Part shown: one piece after another, positions 22,011-51,140 of the stretch | Layout: each line of letters opens with the position of its first letter | How positions within the stretch are numbered: position 1 is the first letter of the stretch | Notes under the pieces: generated by a model | Database searches by the model: none | What the model was told of the DNA's origin: nothing | The model's input: the letters and a program-made list of their open reading frames with translations, nothing else | Made by a program: the position numbers and the translations under genes | Source of the DNA: an uncultured Candidatus Saccharibacteria bacterium | Lineage (GTDB): Bacteria > Patescibacteriota > WWE3 > UBA101185 > UBA10185 | DNA length: 64,000 nucleotides | NCBI GenBank assembly: GCA_964490125.1 | Contig: CAZBAJ010000001.1 | Location: 152,243 to 216,242, forward strand | Reading direction: 5' to 3'

Positions 22011-22087
22011 GGCCACTTAGCTCAGCTGGTTAGAGCACTGCATTCACATTGCAGGGGTCAAAGGTTCGAATCCTTTAGTGGCCACCA
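22011..22087 (+). tRNA. tRNA-Val (anticodon CAC), CCA encoded
   Basis: Cloverleaf read by eye: acceptor ggccact/agtggcc, anticodon stem ctgca/tgcag with loop ttCACat, T-arm aaagg-ttcgaat-ccttt. Confidence 0.9.
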
Positions 22088-28876: not shown

Positions 28877-28952
28877 TGGAGCCAGAGGTGGGAATCGAAC
28901 CCACGACCTTTCCCTTACGAAGGGATTGCTCTACCAACTGAGCTACTCTGGC
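28877..28952 (-). tRNA. tRNA-Thr (anticodon CGU), CCA encoded
   Basis: The reverse complement folds as a cloverleaf: acceptor gccagag/ctctggc, anticodon loop ttCGTaa. Confidence 0.9.
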
Positions 28953-31323: not shown

Positions 31324-31398
31324 TGGAGCGAGAGACGGGGATCGAACCCGCGACCTTCTCCTTGGGAAGGAGACATTCTACCACTGAACTACTCTCGC
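31324..31398 (-). tRNA. tRNA-Trp (anticodon CCA), CCA encoded
   Basis: Reverse-complement cloverleaf: acceptor gcgagag/ctctcgc, anticodon stem ctcct/aggag with loop tcCCAag. Confidence 0.9.
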
Positions 31399-32430: not shown

Positions 32431-32507
32431 TGGCGGGACCGGCCGGTCTCGAACCGGTGACCTCTTCCGTGACAGGGAAGCGCTCTAACCAACTGAGCTA
32501 CGGCCCC
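32431..32507 (-). tRNA. tRNA-Asp (anticodon GUC), CCA encoded
   Basis: Reverse-complement cloverleaf: anticodon stem cttcc/ggaag with loop ctGTCac. Its shape resembles E. coli tRNA-Asp. The T-stem has one mismatch. Confidence 0.85.
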
Positions 32508-32567: not shown

Positions 32568-34343
32568 GTGGTGCAACTAAAACCCCAAACAGAGTTTAGA
32601 TTTACCAACAAAGAAATAGCGCGTTTTCTTAAGGAAGCTCTAGCAGCAATGGAAATTAAGGGCGCTAATGTGTTTAAAATCCGCGCGTATCAAAATGCTA
32701 TTATGTCCATTGAGTCTATTACAAATAGCGTGTACGACTTGTGGCAGAATAACCAGCTTGACCAAATTATTGGCATGGGCGTCGCCCTAAAAAGTCACAT
32801 TAACGAGCTTTTTACTGCGGGCGAGGTAGGGGAGTTTAAGGCGTTAAAAAAGGATTTACCGGCTGGCATGTTTGCGCTTATTGGAATTAAGGGCGTAGGA
32901 GCAAAAACCGCGTTTAAGTTGGCTACGGCTTTTAAGTTGGATAACGGGGAGACGGCGGTGGAAAAGGTTAAGGAAGCTGCGCTGGCAGGAAAAATTAGGA
33001 TGCTTGACGGTTTTGCGGAGAAAAAGGAGGCAGACATTTTAAAGGCAATTGATCAAGAGACTATGAATAAAAATGTTATGCCTAGGTTGCTACTGCCTCA
33101 AGCGGAGGAAATTGCGGGTAGAGTGTTGGAGTATCTTAAAGCATGTCCGCAGGTTTTAGAGGCGGAAGCTTTAGGATCGTTGCGTAGGAAAGCCTCAACG
33201 GTAGGGGATTTGGACATTGCTGTGGCTACCAAGGCGCCGGAAGCGGTTATTAAGCACTTTTTGGCTTTTAACGAGGTTGACCGGGTAACTGGTGAAGGTG
33301 ACAAAAAAGCCTCTGTTAGGCTAAAAAATGGGGTACAGGTGGATGTTAGAACCAGCGACCCCGCAAGTTTTGGCTCTATGAAGCAGTATTTTACGGGTTC
33401 TAAACAGCATAATGTGTTACTTAGATCTTTTGCTTTAGGTAAAGGACTTTCGCTTTCGGAATACGGAATTAAGGTTGGTGGAAAGTTACAGCCCGTTGCC
33501 AAAGAAGAAGACTTTTACAAAAAAGTGGGACTTACTTGGATACCGCCGGAATTGCGTCAGGGTAAAGAGGAGGTGGAATTAGCTTCTCAAAACAAATTGC
33601 CTGTTTTAATTAATCTGTCCGACATTATGGGCGATATTCATGTTCACACTACCGCGTCCGACGGAGTTAATACCTTACCGGAAATGGTAGAGGGTGCAAT
33701 AAAGCTGGGTTATAAGTACATTGGAATTTCCGACCATTCACCTAGTCTGCAAACCAGAGGTAAGTACGAGGTTTTAGGTATTATTGAGAGCCTAAGAAAT
33801 ACTATTGAGCAAATAAATAGTTCACAAAAAGACATACGAGTACTTTTTGGGTACGAAGTTAATATTTTGGTTGATGGAAAGATGTCTTTGTCCGACGATG
33901 TGTTGGAAAAGTTGGACTATGTGGTGGCGTCGGTCCACACCTCGTTTGACCAGTCCAGAGAAGTTGCTACAGAAAGAATGCTTTGCGCTATAAGGAATCC
34001 TCTAGTGACAGTTATAGGACATCCTACAGGTCGGTTGATAAATGAAAGAGAGCCGCTAGACCTAGACTGGGATAGAATTTTTGACGCTTGTTTAGAGTTC
34101 GACAAAATTCTGGAGATAAATTCCCAACCCAACCGCCTAGATTTGCCCGAAGATTTAGTTTACACCGCGCAAAAAAAAGGTCTTAAGTTTATAATCAGCA
34201 GTGACGCGCACTCTGTAGACAGTCTTACTTACATGTCGTACGGCATAAATACGGCTAGGCGTGGTTGGCTTACTAAAAAGTCTGTAATAAATACCTTGTC
34301 GACCGAAGACTTGCTTAAAAAATTTGTGCGGTATAATAAATAA
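32568..34343 (+). CDS. polX: DNA polymerase X family protein with a C-terminal PHP phosphoesterase domain (PolX)
   Basis: HhH motifs (GIKGVGAKTAFKL), a Pol beta-like nucleotidyltransferase segment (GSLRRKASTVGDLDIAVAT) and a PHP segment (HVHTTASDG...GISDHS) are present. Confidence 0.85.
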   Translation: MVQLKPQTEFRFTNKEIARFLKEALAAMEIKGANVFKIRAYQNAIMSIESITNSVYDLWQNNQLDQIIGMGVALKSHINELFTAGEVGEFKALKKDLPAGMFALIGIKGVGAKTAFKLATAFKLDNGETAVEKVKEAALAGKIRMLDGFAEKKEADILKAIDQETMNKNVMPRLLLPQAEEIAGRVLEYLKACPQVLEAEALGSLRRKASTVGDLDIAVATKAPEAVIKHFLAFNEVDRVTGEGDKKASVRLKNGVQVDVRTSDPASFGSMKQYFTGSKQHNVLLRSFALGKGLSLSEYGIKVGGKLQPVAKEEDFYKKVGLTWIPPELRQGKEEVELASQNKLPVLINLSDIMGDIHVHTTASDGVNTLPEMVEGAIKLGYKYIGISDHSPSLQTRGKYEVLGIIESLRNTIEQINSSQKDIRVLFGYEVNILVDGKMSLSDDVLEKLDYVVASVHTSFDQSREVATERMLCAIRNPLVTVIGHPTGRLINEREPLDLDWDRIFDACLEFDKILEINSQPNRLDLPEDLVYTAQKKGLKFIISSDAHSVDSLTYMSYGINTARRGWLTKKSVINTLSTEDLLKKFVRYNK

Positions 34344-34368
34344 AATTTGTGTTTGCAAAGGAGGAAAC

Positions 34369-34920
34369 ATGGTACCAACATTACTTCTTATTGCTCTGCC
34401 GGTTTTGGCAGTAGTGTATTTAATTGGGATTTACAATTCCCTGGCGTCCTTGCGGGTAAAAGTTAAAGAGGCTTGGAGCGGAATTGATGTCCAGTTAAAG
34501 CGACGAATTGATTTGATCCCAAATTTGGTGGAGACGGTTAAGGCTTATGCCAAGCATGAGAAAGAGGTTTTTGACTCGGTTACGCAGGCGCGGTCAGCTC
34601 TTATGAACGCGGGTTCGCATAAAGACGCTTTGCAGGCGGACGGTCAGCTCACGGGTGCATTAAAATCTCTTTTTGCTGTGGCGGAGGCTTACCCGGAATT
34701 AAAAGCGCAGGAAGGTTTTATCAAGTTGCAGGGCGAGCTTAGCGACACAGAAAGCAAAATTGCCTATTCCCGTCAGTTTTATAACAGCGTTGTGCGGGAA
34801 ATGAATTCCAGAATTGTAACTTTCCCAGGCAATGTTTTTGCTAATATGTTTGGGTTTAAGCAGGAAGACTTTTTTGAAGCGCAGGAGGGCGAGCGGGAAG
34901 CAGTAAAAGTTTCCTTTTAG
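34369..34920 (+). CDS. lemA: LemA family protein
   Basis: A strong SD AAAGGAGG sits 6 nt before ATG 34369. An N-terminal TM helix and LemA-like DLIPNLVETVKAYAKHEKEVF are present. Confidence 0.8.
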   Translation: MVPTLLLIALPVLAVVYLIGIYNSLASLRVKVKEAWSGIDVQLKRRIDLIPNLVETVKAYAKHEKEVFDSVTQARSALMNAGSHKDALQADGQLTGALKSLFAVAEAYPELKAQEGFIKLQGELSDTESKIAYSRQFYNSVVREMNSRIVTFPGNVFANMFGFKQEDFFEAQEGEREAVKVSF

Positions 34921-34995
34921 TTGAAGTTGAAGCATTGTTAGGAGGGATTTGTGCCATTTGAGGAGTCGGGTGGGTTTAGAACATCGTAAGAGCGA

Positions 34996-35062
34996 GAAAA
35001 TTTGCGGAATTCGAAGGATGGGCGCGAAGCAGGGACCCATCCTAAGAAGGACGCAAATTTTC
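34996..35062 (+). promoter_or_regulatory. Nested inverted repeats between lemA and htpX (outer gaaaatttgcg/cgcaaattttc; inner ggatggg/cccatcc)
   Basis: Seen directly in the sequence. It ends 18 nt before the htpX ATG. Confidence 0.4.
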
Positions 35063-35079
35063 GAGTAAAAGGATAAAAC

Positions 35080-35976
35080 ATGAACATCTACAACCGTATC
35101 GACGAAAACAAAAGACAAACTGTCTACATAATGCTGGCTTTTACCGCCGTAATTTCCGCGGTTGGTTATTTTGCCGGGCAGTATTTTGGCGACGGTTCCG
35201 GATTCACCTTTTTAGGTGGGGCGCTCATCTTTAGTGGAATTTCCGGCTTTATTAGCTACTACCAAAGCGACAAAATAGTTTTGGCAATTTCCGGGGCAAA
35301 AGAAGTTAAAGAGTCGGACAATCCTTATATACACAACTTGGTAGAAAATTTATGCATTGGTTCCGGTCTGCCCAAACCAAAAATTTATGTTATTAACGAC
35401 TCTGCTATGAACGCCTTTGCCACCGGTCGCGATCCAAATCATGCGGTAATTTGTTTTACTACAGGAATTATTGAGCGACTTAACAAGCTGGAATTGGAAG
35501 GTGTAACCGCGCACGAGCTTTCTCACATTGGTAATTACGACATTAGATTTATGTCGGTGGTGAGTGTTTTAGTTGGTACGGTGGTGCTACTTTCCGACTG
35601 GTTCACCCGAGGCATGTTTTACGGTAGAGGCAGAAAAAGCGACAGAAGTGAAGGTTCGGGACTCTTGATGCTGGTGGGGTTGTTTTTTCTGATTTTAAGT
35701 CCAATAATTGCTACTCTAATTAAGCTTGCTTTAAGTCGGTCTAGGGAATATTTGGCGGACTCTTCTGCGGTCCTTTTAACCCGTTATCCTAAAGGTTTGG
35801 CGGATGCATTAAGAAAAATTTCCGGCGACCGAGAAGTGTTAGAAGCCGCTAACGGAGCCACGGCGCATCTTTACATAACAAACCCGCTAAAGGGCGAACA
35901 GGCTAGTTTTGTGGCAAATTTATTTAGCACCCATCCACCGGTTGCGGAGCGCATCAAAAAGCTGGAGGAAATGTAA
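35080..35976 (+). CDS. htpX: Zinc metalloprotease HtpX (M48 family)
   Basis: An HELSH zinc-binding motif and four TM helices in M48 topology. Confidence 0.85.
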   Translation: MNIYNRIDENKRQTVYIMLAFTAVISAVGYFAGQYFGDGSGFTFLGGALIFSGISGFISYYQSDKIVLAISGAKEVKESDNPYIHNLVENLCIGSGLPKPKIYVINDSAMNAFATGRDPNHAVICFTTGIIERLNKLELEGVTAHELSHIGNYDIRFMSVVSVLVGTVVLLSDWFTRGMFYGRGRKSDRSEGSGLLMLVGLFFLILSPIIATLIKLALSRSREYLADSSAVLLTRYPKGLADALRKISGDREVLEAANGATAHLYITNPLKGEQASFVANLFSTHPPVAERIKKLEEM

Positions 35977-36279
35977 ATGGCTAATGTAAAGCTTTCTGTT
36001 GACGAGGTTTGCGCGATTGCAAAACTAGTAAAACTCCAACTTACAGACGAGGAGATAGAAAAATTTAGGGAAACTATCCCGCAGACTTTGGATGTTATTG
36101 ATATTTTAAAGGAGCTGGATACAGTTACGGTTGTTCCCACAAGTTCGGTTACGGGTTTGTGCAATGTTTACGCGGACGACTCTACTGGGGCAACTCTCCC
36201 GCAGGATTTAGCTCTGTCCAATGCCCATCAAGCAGAAAAAGGTTTGTTTGTAACAAAGGCGGTTTTTGACAGAACATGA
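35977..36279 (+). CDS. gatC: Asp/Glu-tRNA amidotransferase subunit C
   Basis: A ~100-aa protein with a GatC-like N-terminus (VDEVCAIAKLVKLQLTDEEIEKF). It lies directly upstream of gatA. Confidence 0.8.
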   Translation: MANVKLSVDEVCAIAKLVKLQLTDEEIEKFRETIPQTLDVIDILKELDTVTVVPTSSVTGLCNVYADDSTGATLPQDLALSNAHQAEKGLFVTKAVFDRT

Positions 36280-37682
36280 AGAAATTAAACGAATTAACAG
36301 TTTTAGAGGCGGTGGAGGGTTTAAAGTCGAAAATCTTTACTTCTTACGACCTTACCAAGGCTTGTTTGGATCAGATTGCCGACTTTGACGATGAACTAAA
36401 AGCCTTTGTAACCATTCTTAAAGCAGAAGCGCTAGTGCAAGCCGATTCGGCGGATAGAATAATCGACAGGTTAGGTGTTGACGCCTTCACAAGTCAGCCT
36501 TTACTGGGAATTCCTTATGCCTGCAAAGATAATTATTCAACCAAAGGCGTTAAGACCACCGCATCGTCAAGAATGCTAGAAAACTACATTCCGCCGTCTG
36601 AATCCACGGTCACAGAAAAACTAAGCAAAGCAGGCGCAATAATGCTTGGTAAAACTAATATGGACGCTTTTGCACACGGGTCGTCCACAGAAACCTCCGA
36701 TTTTTTTAAAACTAAAAATCCTCACGACAAAACAAGATCGCCAGGTGGATCTTCCGGGGGCTCTGCTTGTGCCGTTGCCTCAAACATGTGTATTTTTGCA
36801 ACTGGTTCAGAAACCGCCGGGAGTTTAAGGGGTCCTGCCAGTTGGTGTGGTATTGTAGGGTTAAAACCAACTTACGGAAGGGTTAGTAGATACGGGTTGA
36901 TTGCCATGGCTTCGTCAACCGATTCTCCCGGTCCGCTTACAAAAACTGTTCAAGATGGCGCTTATATTTTAAAAGTAATTGCCGGCAAAGATTCTTTGGA
37001 TGCCACATCCTCTCCAACATCCGTAGAAGATTATTCAACAATTGATGTTAGAAACCTTACGGGTATTAAAATTGGTCGACCGAGAAGTTATTTTGGAATT
37101 GAATTAGAGCCAGCAGTGCGACAAAAAGCGGAGGAATTTTTGACAATGCTAAAAGAGCATGGGGCGGAAGTAGTGGATATGGAACTTCTATCGCCCAAAT
37201 ACTCCATTGCGGTTTACACCGTTTTACAGAGGTCGGAGGTTTCCTCAAATTTAGCAAGACTTGACGGGATAAGGTATGGAAATTCCAGGGAATTTTTTGG
37301 CCACGAGGCAAAAAATAGAATGATGTTGGGGGCATATACTTTAAGTGCAGGTTATTACGATGCTTATTATGCCAAAGCGCAAAAAGTTAGGACGCTAATC
37401 GTTAACGATTTTAATACAGCTTTTAGTAAGGTTGACTTAATAGTAGGTCCCACGATGCCTTGTACCGCGTTAAAGTTAGGAGAAAGCCAGAAATCCCCGA
37501 TATTTGGGGAGCTGATGGATGTTCTGGCGGAACCAAGCTCCATCGCAGGACTTCCGGCAATTTCTATCCCTTTTGGTGTTGATGATAAAAATTTGCCAAT
37601 TGGAATGCAGTTTATAGGTCCGCAATTTAGCGAGAAAAAACTTATTGAAGTAGCAAATTTCGTGGAGAAAACATGTCGTTAG
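36276..37682 (+). CDS. gatA: Asp/Glu-tRNA amidotransferase subunit A
   Basis: The amidase signature GGSSGGSACAVA and the Ser-cisSer-Lys context are present. Confidence 0.9.
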   Translation: MKKLNELTVLEAVEGLKSKIFTSYDLTKACLDQIADFDDELKAFVTILKAEALVQADSADRIIDRLGVDAFTSQPLLGIPYACKDNYSTKGVKTTASSRMLENYIPPSESTVTEKLSKAGAIMLGKTNMDAFAHGSSTETSDFFKTKNPHDKTRSPGGSSGGSACAVASNMCIFATGSETAGSLRGPASWCGIVGLKPTYGRVSRYGLIAMASSTDSPGPLTKTVQDGAYILKVIAGKDSLDATSSPTSVEDYSTIDVRNLTGIKIGRPRSYFGIELEPAVRQKAEEFLTMLKEHGAEVVDMELLSPKYSIAVYTVLQRSEVSSNLARLDGIRYGNSREFFGHEAKNRMMLGAYTLSAGYYDAYYAKAQKVRTLIVNDFNTAFSKVDLIVGPTMPCTALKLGESQKSPIFGELMDVLAEPSSIAGLPAISIPFGVDDKNLPIGMQFIGPQFSEKKLIEVANFVEKTCR

Positions 37683-38071
37683 CAGCATTTGTTAAAAAAG
37701 TCGTCAATTTTTTGCTTGGTAAAAAAACGGTTAGTGCCAGGGTTTTGGCTATGGTAACGCGTGATTGGCAGGAGATTGCTACATTGCTTAAGGGCGACTC
37801 GCCAAGTCAATTAAAGCAGGCGCTAATTATGGCGGACAGATCGTTGGACTCCGTGCTTAAAGATTTGGTTTCAGGGCAAACTATGGGCGACAGATTAAAA
37901 AATGCCAAAAATCTGTTTAGTCCCCAGTCGTACGACAAAATTTGGCAAGCCCACAAGTTAAGAAACTCCTTGGTGCATGAGAGTGGTTTTGAGGCTCAAG
38001 GCTTTATCATTAAAAACGCGGTCGGGCAATTTAAAGGAGCCATGAACGAGCTGGGTATTAAGGGGATATAA
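37673..38071 (+). CDS. HEPN-superfamily protein, DUF4145-like (Rx4H motif)
   Basis: KLRNSLVHE (Rx4HE) lies at the end of a helical domain, in a DUF4145-like pattern (LKNAKNLFSPQSYDKIWQAHKLRNSLVHE). The start overlaps the gatA stop (ATGTCGTTAG). Confidence 0.5.
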   Translation: MSLAAFVKKVVNFLLGKKTVSARVLAMVTRDWQEIATLLKGDSPSQLKQALIMADRSLDSVLKDLVSGQTMGDRLKNAKNLFSPQSYDKIWQAHKLRNSLVHESGFEAQGFIIKNAVGQFKGAMNELGIKGI

Positions 38072-38074
38072 CTT

Positions 38075-38293
38075 ATGGATAGCATAAAAATAGAGGCAAC
38101 ACTGCCGATAAAATACCAAAGGGATGGAAAGTATTATATAGCTGGGATTAAATCGGCCAATCTATTTTCTTCTGGTGATTCTTATCAATCTGCATGTGAT
38201 GATTTGCTAGAGACAACGGAAATTCTTATGGAAGAAGTGTTTGGTCCTAAAAAGCGAAACTCGTATAAAATAAGTTATCTTAAGGAAAAATAA
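38075..38293 (+). CDS. HicB-like (UPF0150) small protein
   Basis: IKIEATLPIKYQRDGKYYIAGIKSANLFSSGDSYQSACDDLLETTEILMEE resembles the HicB N-domain pattern. The stop abuts the gatB ATG. Confidence 0.4.
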   Translation: MDSIKIEATLPIKYQRDGKYYIAGIKSANLFSSGDSYQSACDDLLETTEILMEEVFGPKKRNSYKISYLKEK

Positions 38294-39616
38294 ATGTACA
38301 GACTAACATTAGGTCTAGAAATCCATATTCAGGTCAATTCTGCTAAAAAAATGTTCTGTGGGTGCGATGCTAATATCTGGCAGGCGGAGCCTAACACTCA
38401 CACCTGTCCAACCTGTTTAGGACTGCCGGGAGCATTGCCGGTGCCAAATTTTGAGTCCGTTCAAAAAACTCAAGTTTTAGGTCTTGCCCTAAATTGTCGC
38501 CTTAATAAAAATAGTCATTTTGACCGAAAGCATTATTTTTATCCAGATTTGCCAAAAGGCTATCAGATTAGTCAGTATAAAGAACCTTTGTGCGGGGAAG
38601 GTTTTTTGGACTTAAAAAGCGGTAAACGGGCGCAAATCGAGCGGATTCATTTGGAGGAGGACACGGCAAAATCTTTTCATGAGGGTAATAAAACACTAAT
38701 AGACTTTAATAAGTCGGGTATTTCGCTAATGGAAATTGTTACAACCCCATGTTTTACAGATGTGGCGGATGCGGTTGACTTTTGTAAGAAAATTCAGGAC
38801 ATTGCGCGGGTTCTAGGTGTTAGTGACGCCGATATGGAAAAGGGCAATATGCGGTTGGAGGCAAACATTTCTTTGCGGACGGCGCAGATGGAGGCGCAAG
38901 GCGAGTTGGCAAAATATAAAGTGGAGGTTAAAAATATTAATTCCTTTAGATTTATGGAGAAGGCGGTTTTGTTTGAGGTTAAGAGGCAGGGCGACTTATT
39001 GGACGCAGGTCAAACGCCTAAACAGGAAAATCGGGGTTGGGATGAAAGAAAGGGCGGTACGGTTTCCCAGCGTGATAAGGAAGAAGCTCACGACTATCGA
39101 TATTTCCCTGACCCTGATATCCCACCCATGGTTTTTGAGAACAAGTATTTTGACGACTTAAAAAAGAGCTTACCTGAACTTCCTTATCAATTGCGGACTA
39201 GGTTGATTGTAAGTTACGGTTTAAATCCAGCCTCCGCGGACTTTTTTTCTACAGGTTTTGGAATTGAGCTTGCTAAAAAGTTTGAAGAAGTCGCCAAAAA
39301 AGTGCCAGACTACCAAAAAGTCGCCAATTTAATGATTAACAAGGTTGAATATCGAGACATGTCCGTTGACCAACTCGTTCTGGCATTGTCCAACGAGATG
39401 CAATTATCGGAAGCACCCTTGGATTTAGATGTTACCGATGTGATGGATAAGGTCCTTAAAGAAAACCCAACCGCCATCCAGAGTTATAAAGCAGGTAAAC
39501 AAGGTTCCTTTGAGTTTTTGCTTGGGCAGACGGTTAAATCGCTAGGTACTAAAACCGATATGGTCAAACTTCGTCAAAAATTGGTAGAGAAATTAAGAAT
39601 AGCCTCTAATCCTTGA
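38294..39616 (+). CDS. gatB: Asp/Glu-tRNA amidotransferase subunit B
   Basis: LGLEIHIQVNSAKKMFCGC and TCPTCLGLPGALPV are canonical GatB motifs. Confidence 0.9.
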   Translation: MYRLTLGLEIHIQVNSAKKMFCGCDANIWQAEPNTHTCPTCLGLPGALPVPNFESVQKTQVLGLALNCRLNKNSHFDRKHYFYPDLPKGYQISQYKEPLCGEGFLDLKSGKRAQIERIHLEEDTAKSFHEGNKTLIDFNKSGISLMEIVTTPCFTDVADAVDFCKKIQDIARVLGVSDADMEKGNMRLEANISLRTAQMEAQGELAKYKVEVKNINSFRFMEKAVLFEVKRQGDLLDAGQTPKQENRGWDERKGGTVSQRDKEEAHDYRYFPDPDIPPMVFENKYFDDLKKSLPELPYQLRTRLIVSYGLNPASADFFSTGFGIELAKKFEEVAKKVPDYQKVANLMINKVEYRDMSVDQLVLALSNEMQLSEAPLDLDVTDVMDKVLKENPTAIQSYKAGKQGSFEFLLGQTVKSLGTKTDMVKLRQKLVEKLRIASNP

Positions 39617-39632
39617 GTGTTATAATCCCTGC

Positions 39633-41471
39633 ATGGACTTAAAGTTTAGTTTTACCGACCCTAAATACCAGCATATTACCAGCATGGACCAGGTGGTTAA
39701 GGCGGTAGAAGAGCTGGAAAAACACCAAATGCTGGGCGTTGACATTGAGGGTACGGGCTTAGACCCATACACCGATAAACTTTTGCTCTTGCAGATCGGT
39801 ACGGACGAAGTAAGTTATATTTTTGACGCTCAAGTCATGCCACTTTACGGTATAGAGCCACTAATTAACCTTTTAGAAAACCCAAAGATTATTAAGATTA
39901 TGCAAAATGGTAAGTTTGACTATGGATTCATAAAATTGCAGGTCGGTGCAAAAATTAATAATATTTTTGACACGATGTTAGCGGAGGGCGTTTTAACGGC
40001 GGGCTTAAAGCGGCCACAATCTTTAGCGGCACTTTCGGAGCAATATTTAGAAACCAGGCTTGATAAGTCCACCAGAAAAAGCTTTGAGGAATTAAAAACC
40101 CAAATATCCGAGTCGCAATTAAAATATTCCGCGTTAGATACTTTAGTGCTTTTCCCCATTTTTGAGGCGCAATACAAGCGACTTCAGGAGGAGAAACTTA
40201 TTAATATTGCTAAACTAGAATTTGCCGTAACCACGGTTGTAGCAGAAATGGAGCTGTATGGCATTTATATCGATGTCCCTAAATGGCGCGGAATTATAAC
40301 TAATCTTAGAAAAAAGCACGCCGAATATTTATTTAACTTTCAGGAAGCGGTACGGCCGTTATACGAAACATCCCAAGTTGATTTATTTGGTCAGCACGCC
40401 GATGTTATAAATACTAACAGCAACACACAATTATTGGATCTCTTTAATAATAAACTGCATCTAGGAATTCTATCTACGGGCGACGAGGTGCTAATGAGTC
40501 TGAACCATCCGGTAGCAAAAATCTTACGCGACTACCGGGCTTATACCAAACTTATTACTTCTTTTGGCGACAATTTGCTGGCAAAAGTCAATAAAAAAAC
40601 CGGTCGACTGCACCCGGATTTTATGCAACTTGGAGCCGCTACTGGTAGATTTGCCTGCTCCAACCCAAACTTGCAACAAATTCCCCGAAATTCCGAAGAA
40701 GCCCCGTTTAGACAATGTTTTGTACCGGCAAGTGGCTATAAACTGGTGGTAACGGATTATTCGTCAATGGAGATGCGTATTTTGGCTGACCTTTCCGGCG
40801 ATGTAAAAATGATTGATGCGCTAAAAAATAATTTAGACATCCATTCCTACACGGCGGCTTTGATGTTTGGTAAAGAATACACGCCGGACTTTAAAAAGAA
40901 ATACCCGGAACTTCGTCAAATTGCCAAGCCTATTGGTTTTGGGCTAATGTACGGCATGGGTCCTATGGGTTTAGCAAAGCGACTTGAGCAAGAAATGGGC
41001 AGGGAAGTGACAAAAGAAGAGGGAGCGGATTACATGAATAAATATTTTTCCTCGTATCCGTCTGTGCGGACTTTTTTGGACAGGACGGCAAACGAGGCAG
41101 TTTTGCGTGGCTGGAGCATGACGCCGGCAGGCAGAAAAAGATGGTACAAAAAACCGGATCCCAGCGATCCCGATTTCAAAAAACATAATGCACAAATACA
41201 GCGGGAAGCAAAAAACCACCCCATTCAAGGTACTAACGCAGATGTTATAAAATACGCATTAGTATTTATTCATGAACGCCTTAAAAAAGAGGGTATTCAA
41301 GGCGCCATTACGCACACCGTGCATGACGAGGTAGTTACGGAAGTCCGAGCAGACCAGGCGGAGGATTGGGCAAAATGTCAGCAAGAAGAGATGGTGCGGG
41401 CAGGGGAATTGGTAATTAAAAAGGTGCCTGTGGTTTCTGATCCGGTAGTTGGTGATGTGTGGGAGCACTAA
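39633..41471 (+). CDS. polA: DNA polymerase I-like (family A) with a 3'-5' exonuclease domain and no 5' nuclease domain
   Basis: The exonuclease domain is marked by LGVDIEGTGLD...LLLQIG. Pol A motifs are present: motif A (DYSSMEMRILA), motif B (RQIAKPIGFGLMYGMG) and motif C (HTVHDEVV). Confidence 0.85.
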   Translation: MDLKFSFTDPKYQHITSMDQVVKAVEELEKHQMLGVDIEGTGLDPYTDKLLLLQIGTDEVSYIFDAQVMPLYGIEPLINLLENPKIIKIMQNGKFDYGFIKLQVGAKINNIFDTMLAEGVLTAGLKRPQSLAALSEQYLETRLDKSTRKSFEELKTQISESQLKYSALDTLVLFPIFEAQYKRLQEEKLINIAKLEFAVTTVVAEMELYGIYIDVPKWRGIITNLRKKHAEYLFNFQEAVRPLYETSQVDLFGQHADVINTNSNTQLLDLFNNKLHLGILSTGDEVLMSLNHPVAKILRDYRAYTKLITSFGDNLLAKVNKKTGRLHPDFMQLGAATGRFACSNPNLQQIPRNSEEAPFRQCFVPASGYKLVVTDYSSMEMRILADLSGDVKMIDALKNNLDIHSYTAALMFGKEYTPDFKKKYPELRQIAKPIGFGLMYGMGPMGLAKRLEQEMGREVTKEEGADYMNKYFSSYPSVRTFLDRTANEAVLRGWSMTPAGRKRWYKKPDPSDPDFKKHNAQIQREAKNHPIQGTNADVIKYALVFIHERLKKEGIQGAITHTVHDEVVTEVRADQAEDWAKCQQEEMVRAGELVIKKVPVVSDPVVGDVWEH

Positions 41472-51065: not shown

Positions 51066-51140
51066 TGGTGAGGGCGGAGGGAATCGGACCCTCGACGAAC
51101 GGCTTAAAAGGCCGTCACTCTACCACTGAGTTACGCCCCC
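51066..51140 (-). tRNA. tRNA-Lys (anticodon UUU), CCA encoded
   Basis: Reverse-complement cloverleaf: acceptor gggggcg/cgccctc (one G-U pair), anticodon stem acggc/gccgt with loop ctTTTaa. Confidence 0.9.

What the first reader, a model, noticed from the sequence alone, without database searches (positions are those of the whole stretch)
37673..38293. HEPN (DUF4145-like) and HicB-like gene pair inserted with zero spacing inside the gatC-gatA-gatB operon
gatCAB is normally contiguous. Here a 132-aa protein with a terminal Rx4HE motif (KLRNSLVHE, HEPN/DUF4145-like) starts on the gatA stop codon (ATGTCGTTAG), followed by a 72-aa HicB/UPF0150-like protein whose stop abuts the gatB ATG. HEPN proteins are usually RNases. 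A HEPN plus HicB-like pairing is not a canonical toxin-antitoxin combination. GatCAB is a tRNA-dependent enzyme, and co-translation with it suggests a tRNA/RNA-directed function or a parasitic addiction module stabilised by an essential operon.
Basis: partly seen in the sequence, partly recalled or inferred. Interest (0 to 1): 0.65.

Follow-up and report, generated by a model that had tools for sequence, protein, structure and literature searches.

The report
Conserved HEPN gene inside CPR gatCAB
The 132-aa gene between gatA and gatB is not a recent insert but an ancient, membrane-associated, RNase-like (HEPN-fold) gene that follows gatA across the candidate phyla radiation and is unstudied; only the 72-aa gene after it is a recent strain-specific insertion.

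Summary
gatC, gatA, a 132-aa ORF ("X", 37673-38071), a 72-aa ORF (38075-38293) and gatB are packed with overlaps or 0-3 nt spacers.

X is not an insert and not part of a toxin-antitoxin pair. gatA lies directly upstream in 118 of 123 informative loci from WWE3, CPR2, Saccharibacteria, Parcubacteria, Woesebacteria and Berkelbacteria. About 2,700 50%-identity clusters exist. Most members carry an N-terminal transmembrane helix. None was found on plasmids, phages or viral contigs.

The positional equivalent in a cultivated saccharibacterium (SEML1_0535) is depleted in Tn-seq like gatA and gatB.

The 72-aa ORF is an AT-rich orphan that is absent from the closest relative. It is weakly similar to a HicB-like gene of a hicBA cassette in the same slot elsewhere. 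I read it as a separate recent insertion.

Best reading: X is a CPR-specific, membrane-tethered HEPN RNase-like protein co-expressed with GatA and probably acting on tRNA. This function is inferred, not shown.

The parts
35977..36279 (+). gatC
   Evidence: Pfam GatC, E 1.7e-12. Overlaps the gatA start by 4 nt.
36276..37682 (+). gatA (amidase subunit); the invariant upstream neighbour of X
   Evidence: Pfam Amidase, E 2e-129. gatA lies upstream of X in 67/72 genome loci and 51/51 metagenome loci with enough upstream sequence.
37673..38071 (+). X: 132-aa HEPN-fold protein, a member of a CPR-wide unnamed family. Its start overlaps the gatA stop by 10 nt.
37679..37717 (+). N-terminal amphipathic/hydrophobic helix of X (residues 3-15). 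It stands where most family members have a transmembrane helix.
   Evidence: Helix 3-15 in the model, at low pLDDT of about 65. Mean hydrophobicity 0.45 and hydrophobic moment 0.35. 86 of 150 family representatives have a strong N-terminal TM-like helix, against 3 of 79 in the WWE3 subset.
37835..37837 (+). Codon of Asp55, the conserved acidic residue in HEPN helix 2
   Evidence: Invariant in alignment A1 and at least 90% conserved in the 141-sequence alignment A7. Lies in predicted helix 44-65. This is the role defined in PMC3710099.
37961..37978 (+). R97-N-S-L-V-H102: the Rx4H HEPN motif, at the C-terminal end of helix 3
   Evidence: R97, N98 and H102 are invariant in 37/37 and 141/141 aligned sequences. 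The pattern H-K-x-R-N-x3-H is present in 147/150 representatives. Helix 84-102 is followed by a loop.
38075..38293 (+). ORF72: a strain-specific 72-aa orphan, possibly a truncated HicB-like remnant. It fills a ~225-nt insertion between X and gatB.
   Evidence: Only itself is found in the protein collection. Absent from the closest relatives L087 and L088, where X overlaps the gatB start. GC 34% against 42-44% in its neighbours. 29% identity (E 2e-8, pairwise) to the first 55 aa of the 98-aa ORF of L005, which precedes a HicA-like ORF.
38294..39616 (+). gatB
   Evidence: Pfam GatB_N, E 9e-103, and GatB_Yqey, E 3e-9. gatB lies downstream of X in 67/76 genome loci and 30/57 metagenome loci.

Best explanation
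X is an ancestral chromosomal gene of the candidate phyla radiation (Patescibacteria). It encodes a small protein with an N-terminal membrane anchor and a cytoplasmic HEPN domain. In most lineages the anchor is a transmembrane helix; in the WWE3 lineage of this window it is an amphipathic helix. The HEPN domain keeps a complete catalytic-type signature: Asp in helix 2 and R-N-x3-H at the end of helix 3. X is transcribed with gatA and translationally coupled to it, and in this lineage to gatB as well. I infer that it is an active, metal-independent HEPN endoribonuclease, or at least an RNA-end-binding protein, held at the membrane. I further infer that it works on the same substrate class as GatCAB, namely tRNA. 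It might survey or process tRNA(Gln)/tRNA(Asn) acceptor ends, or link tRNA integrity to the amidation step. It has no antitoxin partner and is not mobile. ORF72 is a separate, recent, AT-rich insertion into the X|gatB junction. It is most likely the decayed N-terminal part of a HicB-like antitoxin from a hicBA cassette of the kind still intact at the same junction in a related WWE3 genome. Shown: gene layout, fold, motif conservation, phyletic spread, linkage to gatA, absence from mobile elements, recency of ORF72. Inferred: RNase activity, membrane association, tRNA as substrate, functional link to GatCAB, HicB origin of ORF72.
Against: No biochemical data exist for any member. There is no significant sequence match to any HEPN Pfam or NCBIfam model or to any solved HEPN chain, so the superfamily assignment rests on a predicted structure plus the motif. 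I could not superpose residues, because the model coordinates are not exposed. At least one HepT homologue does not use its RX4H motif for catalysis (PMC11586414), so motif conservation does not prove RNase activity. The link to GatCAB is by gene order only. In about half of the distant lineages gatB is not adjacent and X is followed by lgt-like membrane-protein genes. Five loci have X away from gatA, after PMM-like or recF-like genes. Other unrelated genes (cyclophilin, SDR, aspS) also sit inside this operon. The Tn-seq depletion of SEML1_0535 may be a polar effect on gatB, and I did not see its sequence. For ORF72, the HicB assignment rests on sub-threshold matches only.
Confidence: 0.55

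Rival explanations
1. X is a housekeeping membrane-proximal HEPN RNase or RNA-binding protein of CPR bacteria, for example in mRNA or rRNA turnover. Its job has nothing specific to do with GatCAB. The gatA-X adjacency is operon inertia in small, highly syntenic genomes.
For: gatB is not adjacent in 27/57 distant loci, where lgt-like and other membrane-protein genes follow X. Five loci have X after PMM-like or recF-like genes. Unrelated genes (cyclophilin, SDR, histidine phosphatase, SHOCT) also sit in this operon. TM-anchored HEPN proteins have been proposed to process RNA at the membrane in general (PMC3710099 section 15).
Against: gatA is upstream in 118/123 loci over phylum-level divergence (GatA about 41-48% identical), often with overlapping stop/start codons. 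This is unusually strict for functionally unrelated genes.
Confidence: 0.3
2. X is a catalytically inert HEPN scaffold. It would act as a membrane anchor or substrate/nucleotide-binding accessory subunit that positions GatCAB, as HEPN domains do in nucleotidyltransferases.
Against: According to PMC3710099, substrate-binding HEPN domains have lost the Rx4-6H motif wholly or partly. X keeps R, N, H and the helix-2 acid almost without exception.
Confidence: 0.12
3. One reading: X (toxin) and ORF72 (HicB-like antitoxin) form a non-canonical toxin-antitoxin or addiction module that was inserted into, and is stabilised by, the essential gatCAB operon.
For: The HEPN fold and motif resemble HepT toxins. 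ORF72 resembles a HicB-like protein. The two genes are tightly spaced.
Against: X occurs without ORF72 in every other locus examined (more than 150). The closest relative lacks ORF72. ORF72 has a different base composition. X is absent from plasmids, phages and viral contigs. X has no MNT neighbour and lacks the Tyr of RX4HXY.
Confidence: 0.03

Closest known systems
[quoted passage not shown] Shewanella SO_3166, PDB 5yep; Aphanizomenon HEPN, 7ae2; Legionella HEPN, 8xdj)
   Different: No significant sequence-model match (NCBIfam HepT_toxin E=0.11 for one relative, none for X). No Tyr two residues after the His, which is the AMPylation site in RX4HXY. No MNT antitoxin gene. An N-terminal membrane helix. 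Fixed position after gatA. Not on mobile elements.
Bacterial membrane-associated HEPN proteins (single TM helix plus cytoplasmic HEPN, DUF4145-type with a 'WP' TM signature; Anantharaman et al. 2013, PMC3710099 section 15)
   Same: Same architecture: an N-terminal TM segment followed by a cytoplasmic HEPN domain with the motif intact. These were proposed to cleave RNA at the inner face of the membrane.
   Different: The Pfam DUF4145 model does not match. The WP signature is present in only 6/150 representatives; 21/150 have a related [LWM]PF ending. Those families are sporadic and linked to defence or signalling. X is a core, single-copy, CPR-wide gene tied to gatA.
AF0298-like HEPN (PDB 2hsb)
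   Different: According to PMC3710099, that family typically lacks the His of the motif and uses another His. X has the canonical R...H. Sequence identity is 9%.
HicB antitoxin / hicBA cassettes (for ORF72 only)
   Same: beta-beta-beta-(beta)-alpha N-terminal layout in a low-confidence model. 29% identity to a 98-aa protein that weakly hits HicB_lk_antitox and precedes a HicA-like ORF at the same junction in L005. Weak match to TTHA1756, PDB 2yzt (E 0.04-0.12).

Membership tests
HEPN superfamily | [quoted passage not shown] | tested here: met
HEPN superfamily | Rx4-6H motif at the end of helix 3, with a polar residue (N/D/H) right after the R | tested here: met
   R97-N98-S-L-V-H102 ends predicted helix 84-102. 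R, N and H are invariant in 141 sequences. 147/150 representatives carry the motif. Definition.
HEPN superfamily | Conserved acidic residue in helix 2, near the motif | tested here: met
   D55 (and D59) in helix 44-65 are invariant or at least 90% conserved. The context is A-D-[KR]-x-L-D, not the 'typical' E-x3-[KR]. Spatial proximity to the motif was not checked, because no coordinates were available.
HEPN superfamily | Metal-independent endoribonuclease activity | not testable with these tools
   Needs biochemistry. One search shows that motif conservation does not guarantee motif-dependent catalysis.
Pfam DUF4145 (PF13643) | Match to the family HMM at or above the gathering score | tested here: not met
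   No hit for X even at E<=10. One of 37 relatives hits at E=0.1. The ProtNLM label 'DUF4145' for SEML1_0535 in PMC10633639 Table S2 is a language-model guess, and Pfam is 'NA' in that table.
HepT toxin of type VII HepT/MntA TA | RX4HXY motif with the Tyr that MntA AMPylates | tested here: not met
   The two residues after the His are E/D followed by S, V, A, I, T, M or L; no Tyr appears among the 15 commonest dipeptides tabulated over the family sequences that carry the motif. Motif definition.
HepT toxin of type VII HepT/MntA TA | Adjacent MNT (nucleotidyltransferase) antitoxin gene | tested here: not met
   In the window the neighbours are gatA and ORF72/gatB. Elsewhere they are gatA and gatB, lgt-like, SDR or cyclophilin genes.
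HicB antitoxin (ORF72) | Match to a HicB family model, a HicB N-terminal fold, and a partner HicA toxin gene | tested here: inconclusive
Known GatCAB parts (GatC, GatB helical/YqeY tail) | Sequence or fold similarity to a known amidotransferase domain | tested here: not met
Mobile toxin-antitoxin / defence gene | Patchy distribution and presence on plasmids, phages or islands | tested here: not met
   X has no match in 72,556 plasmids, 50,697 phages or 2.9 M viral contigs. Its position is fixed in 118/123 loci. There is a single copy in the window.

The most novel reading that the evidence does not exclude
X is a CPR-specific fourth component of the tRNA-dependent amidotransferase pathway. It would be a membrane-tethered HEPN nuclease that physically joins GatCAB or the transamidosome and acts on the acceptor end of tRNA(Gln)/tRNA(Asn). 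It might destroy or hold back mis-acylated Glu-tRNA(Gln)/Asp-tRNA(Asn) that escape amidation, or throttle translation when amide donor is scarce. That would be a toxin-type RNase domesticated into an essential translation-fidelity machine in a whole bacterial radiation.
Probability: 0.2. Interest if true: 0.85.

Novelty: new variant of a known kind. Interest (0 to 1): 0.62.

Why it matters
HEPN RNases are known almost only from conflict systems (toxin-antitoxin, Abi, CRISPR effectors) and a few eukaryotic RNA-processing enzymes. Here a HEPN protein with an intact catalytic signature is a core, apparently essential gene of a very large bacterial radiation. It has no antitoxin and sits in an operon for indirect aminoacylation of tRNA. 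The family has no Pfam or NCBIfam model. It appears in the literature I could search only as an unnamed 'Patescibacteria-enriched' family and as a row in two supplementary tables. It gives a concrete, testable handle on one of the essential unknown genes of CPR bacteria. A genetic system already exists in Southlakia epibionticum. If the link to GatCAB is functional, it would add a new player to the transamidation pathway.

Tried and rejected
1. Pfam, NCBIfam and PADLOC scans of X and ORF72 found nothing significant.
2. Profile searches of the X family against all PDB sequences, with 37- and 141-sequence alignments, found no HEPN chain. The best hit was ribosomal protein bS20 at E=0.05 over helices 1-2. 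I regard this as compositional or chance.
4. Homologue searches for ORF72, alone and as a profile with the L005 protein, returned only the queries themselves.
6. I considered X as a GatB/YqeY-like or GatC-like accessory domain and rejected this on fold.
7. I considered a HepT/MntA toxin and rejected it: no Tyr acceptor, no MNT gene, not mobile.
8. The promoter/terminator scan of 33.5-42.5 kb was at background level and showed no sign of an internal transcription unit.
9. Literature searches for HEPN with GatCAB, gatA/gatB or Patescibacteria found nothing relevant. The 2013 HEPN survey and the 2019 CPR protein-family paper do not mention this association.
10. A first metagenome scan with a 16-sequence alignment failed for lack of a conserved block. 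It was repeated with six sequences.

Full report
THE SEQUENCE. Searches confirm the layout on the + strand. The genes are gatC (35977-36279), gatA (36276-37682), a 132-aa ORF called X here (37673-38071), a 72-aa ORF called ORF72 (38075-38293), gatB (38294-39616) and polA (39633-41471). LemA and HtpX genes lie upstream. The X ATG lies in 'ATGTCGTTAG' and overlaps the gatA stop by 10 nt. ORF72 begins 3 nt after the X stop, and its own stop abuts the gatB ATG. Pfam confirms GatC, Amidase, and GatB_N plus GatB_Yqey for the flanking genes.

WHAT X IS. X has no match in Pfam, NCBIfam or PADLOC. The first homologue search gave 79 proteins of about 130 aa; the named ones come from candidate division WWE3. 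An alignment (A1) shows invariant D55, G68, R74, L75, W91, H94, R97, N98 and H102, with the core motif W-x-A-H-K-L-R-N-x-L-V-H-E.

The HEPN survey of Anantharaman et al. (PMC3710099) defines the superfamily by four features:
- a four-helix bundle, with frequent inserts between helices 2 and 3;
- a polar N/D/H after the R;
- an acidic residue in helix 2.

X fits each point. R97-N98-x3-H102 closes helix 84-102. D55 lies in helix 44-65. A short helical insert (71-77) lies between them. I therefore accept HEPN superfamily membership. Two caveats apply. The structure is predicted, and no sequence profile method linked X to a solved HEPN.

Family-level labels fail:
- The Pfam DUF4145 model does not match.
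- HepT does not fit. Its hallmark is RX4HXY with a Tyr that MntA AMPylates (PMC11586414), whereas X-family proteins have E/D then S, V, A, I or T after the His.
- No MNT gene is nearby.

HOW WIDESPREAD X IS, AND WHERE IT SITS. An exhaustive profile search found 2,686 representative clusters (50% identity) at E<=1e-3 and 1,576 at E<=1e-10. Nearly all of the 150 listed are 110-170 aa. Of those 150, 147 keep H-K-x-R-N-x3-H, and 86 have a strongly hydrophobic N-terminal helix followed by basic residues. This predicts an N-out/C-in single-pass anchor with a cytoplasmic HEPN domain. The WWE3 subset, including the window, instead has an amphipathic, Lys-flanked helix. Another 21/150 have a hydrophobic helix ending in [LWM]PF.

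A scan of GTDB species genomes found 428 loci. In the 80 best, gatA lies just upstream in 67 of the 72 with enough upstream sequence. gatB lies downstream in 67 of 76, and both are present in 63 of 70. Going by the record titles, many of which are generic MAG labels, these loci come from WWE3, CPR2, Saccharibacteria, Parcubacteria/Paceibacterota, Woesebacteria, Berkelbacteria and Microgenomates.

A second, independent scan of metagenome contigs used a profile of distant TM-type members. It gave gatA upstream in 51 of 51 loci and gatB downstream in 30 of 57. Where gatB is not adjacent, X is often followed by a conserved ~250-aa membrane-protein gene that looks Lgt-like by its N-terminal sequence (not profile-tested), or by other genes. 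The invariant pair is therefore gatA then X.

In loci with called genes the junctions overlap or nearly abut. gatA/X shows 8-nt or 4-nt overlaps or a 2-nt gap, and X/gatB shows 4-nt overlaps. This is typical of translational coupling. X evolves under purifying selection (dN/dS 0.10-0.19). It has no match in plasmid, phage or IMG/VR collections and is single-copy in the window. Five loci have X elsewhere, after a PMM-like or a recF-like gene.

EXTERNAL EVIDENCE. In the only CPR bacterium with Tn-seq data, Southlakia epibionticum (Wang et al. 2023, PMC10633639), Table S1 lists these genes:
- gatC: SEML1_0537.
- gatA: SEML1_0536.
- A 420-nt 'hypothetical protein': SEML1_0535. It overlaps gatA by 4 nt and gatB by 1 nt.
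- gatB: SEML1_0534.

SEML1_0535 is flagged as a core family and as Patescibacteria-enriched. It is called GD/GD/ES (growth defect, growth defect, essential). Its normalised reads fall from 126.6 to 5.9 to 2.8, while non-essential neighbours stay in the hundreds to thousands. Table S2 gives no Pfam hit, a ProtNLM label 'DUF4145 domain-containing protein', and a DPAM domain for residues 26-135 of type 'nucleotidyltransferase substrate binding subunit/domain', which is the HEPN fold. The main text never mentions the gene.

By position, size and fold this is the saccharibacterial equivalent of X, but I could not check its sequence. A transposon in it may also be polar on gatB. Searches for HEPN together with GatCAB, gatA/gatB or Patescibacteria found no paper describing the association. 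The 2013 HEPN survey and the 2019 CPR family paper do not mention it either.

WHAT ORF72 IS. ORF72 has no homologue other than itself among 5.8 billion proteins. Identical copies occur in three other assemblies of the same organism. The closest relative (L087, X 91% identical) and the next (L088) have X overlapping the gatB start, with nothing in between. The DNA alignment shows a ~225-nt insertion in the window. ORF72 has 34% GC (GC3 28%), against 42-44% for its neighbours.

In a more distant WWE3 genome (L005/L006) the same junction holds a 98-aa ORF followed by a 79-aa ORF. The 79-aa ORF matches HicA_toxin (E 2.8e-5, just under the Pfam cut-off). The 98-aa ORF matches HicB_lk_antitox weakly (E 0.042). 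ORF72 aligns to the first 55 residues of that 98-aa protein (29% identity, pairwise E 2e-8). Both give a weak match to TTHA1756 (2yzt).

The two junctions of X are insertion-prone in other genomes as well:
- a short-chain dehydrogenase between X and gatB in nine WWE3 loci (two of them profile-checked);
- a cyclophilin between gatA and X in several loci whose titles include CPR2 and Berkelbacteria (four profile-checked);
- aspS between gatA and X in one locus;
- SHOCT-domain and histidine-phosphatase genes in others.

MECHANISM, WITH THE INFERRED STEPS MARKED. Shown: X is a HEPN-fold protein with a fully conserved catalytic-type motif. It usually carries a membrane anchor. It is co-transcribed with gatA and probably translationally coupled to it, across the CPR.

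Inferred: because HEPN domains that retain the motif are, where tested, metal-independent RNases, X is most likely an RNase or RNA-end-binding protein at the cytoplasmic face of the membrane. TM-anchored bacterial HEPN proteins have been predicted to act this way.

Further inferred: the strict linkage to gatA points to tRNA as the substrate. So does the fact that many HEPN nucleases target tRNA. PrrC and RloC do, and by my own recollection HepT of A. flos-aquae clips tRNA 3' ends. X might act in quality control or regulation around the GatCAB step. The alternatives are a general housekeeping RNase with no GatCAB link, or an inert scaffold. The toxin-antitoxin reading is essentially excluded.

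VERDICT. The HEPN call holds. The 'insert' and 'pair' claims do not. What remains is a large, unnamed, CPR-wide HEPN family locked behind gatA and apparently important for growth. I could find no described function for it.

Noticed in passing
L013:4381-5079, L029:4348-5052 (similar-sized ORFs at this junction in L022, L024, L025, L031-L033, L037); L047:2997-3854, L056:3124-3864, L065:3237-3887, L076:3197-3853; L011:2187-3950; L063:4340-4846; L057:4315-4881: Both junctions of X take up extra genes in other genomes. A short-chain dehydrogenase sits between X and gatB in nine WWE3 loci (two profile-checked). A cyclophilin PPIase with an N-terminal extension sits between gatA and X in several loci whose titles include CPR2 and Berkelbacteria. 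A full aspS (AspRS) sits between gatA and X in one locus. A SHOCT-domain protein and a histidine phosphatase occur in others.
   Followed up: partly
L005:5405-5927 (also L006:2990-3512): An apparently intact hicB-like/hicA-like pair (98 aa and 79 aa, overlapping) occupies the same X|gatB junction in another WWE3 genome. It lies inside an essential operon and is translationally packed.
   Followed up: partly
L062, L069 (X after a PMM/PGM-like gene); L071, L081 (X after a recF-like gene); L066: These are the few loci where the X family is not next to gatA. Whether these genomes lack gatCAB is unknown. The answer would bear directly on whether X depends on GatCAB.
   Followed up: no
L066 (JACSRR010000073.1, titled Ignavibacteriaceae) and L081 (OZ246401.1, titled Gammaproteobacteria, 938-kb chromosome): Two records with non-CPR titles carry a typical TM-type X. 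Contig size and neighbours look CPR-like. The titles are probably mis-binned or mislabelled, so this is not evidence of X outside the CPR.
   Followed up: no
X family N-termini, e.g. P0113, P0126, P0150, P0221, P0230: 21 of 150 representatives have, instead of a plain TM helix, a conserved hydrophobic helix ending in [LWM]PF followed by basic residues (e.g. ...GLWWLISLPFRK). Six have 'WP', recalling the WP-signature TM module described for DUF4145-type membrane HEPN proteins.
   Followed up: partly
window 37730-37900 (X residues ~20-78): Both family profiles give their best PDB sequence hit to ribosomal protein bS20 (E about 0.05) over helices 1-2 of X. The hit is not significant and is probably compositional, but it is reproducible.
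   Followed up: partly
window 38294-39616: GatB here is short (440 aa). Only the C-terminal half of the Pfam GatB_Yqey model matches (residues 369-434 to model positions 83-148). The helical domain after the catalytic domain is therefore diverged or shortened. Whether this correlates with the presence of X was not examined.
   Followed up: no
window 34324-41471 and L001-L005, L087-L089: WWE3 genomes share the order PolX-like (HHH_8/PHP), LemA, (NUDIX), HtpX, gatC, gatA, X, gatB, PolA, ClpB-like, over GatA identities down to about 60%.
   Followed up: no
window 22011-22087, 28877-28952, 31324-31398, 32431-32507, 51066-51140: Five tRNA genes (Val-CAC, Thr-CGT, Gly-CCC, Asp-GTC, Lys-TTT). No other Rfam family reaches its gathering score in the window.
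   Followed up: no
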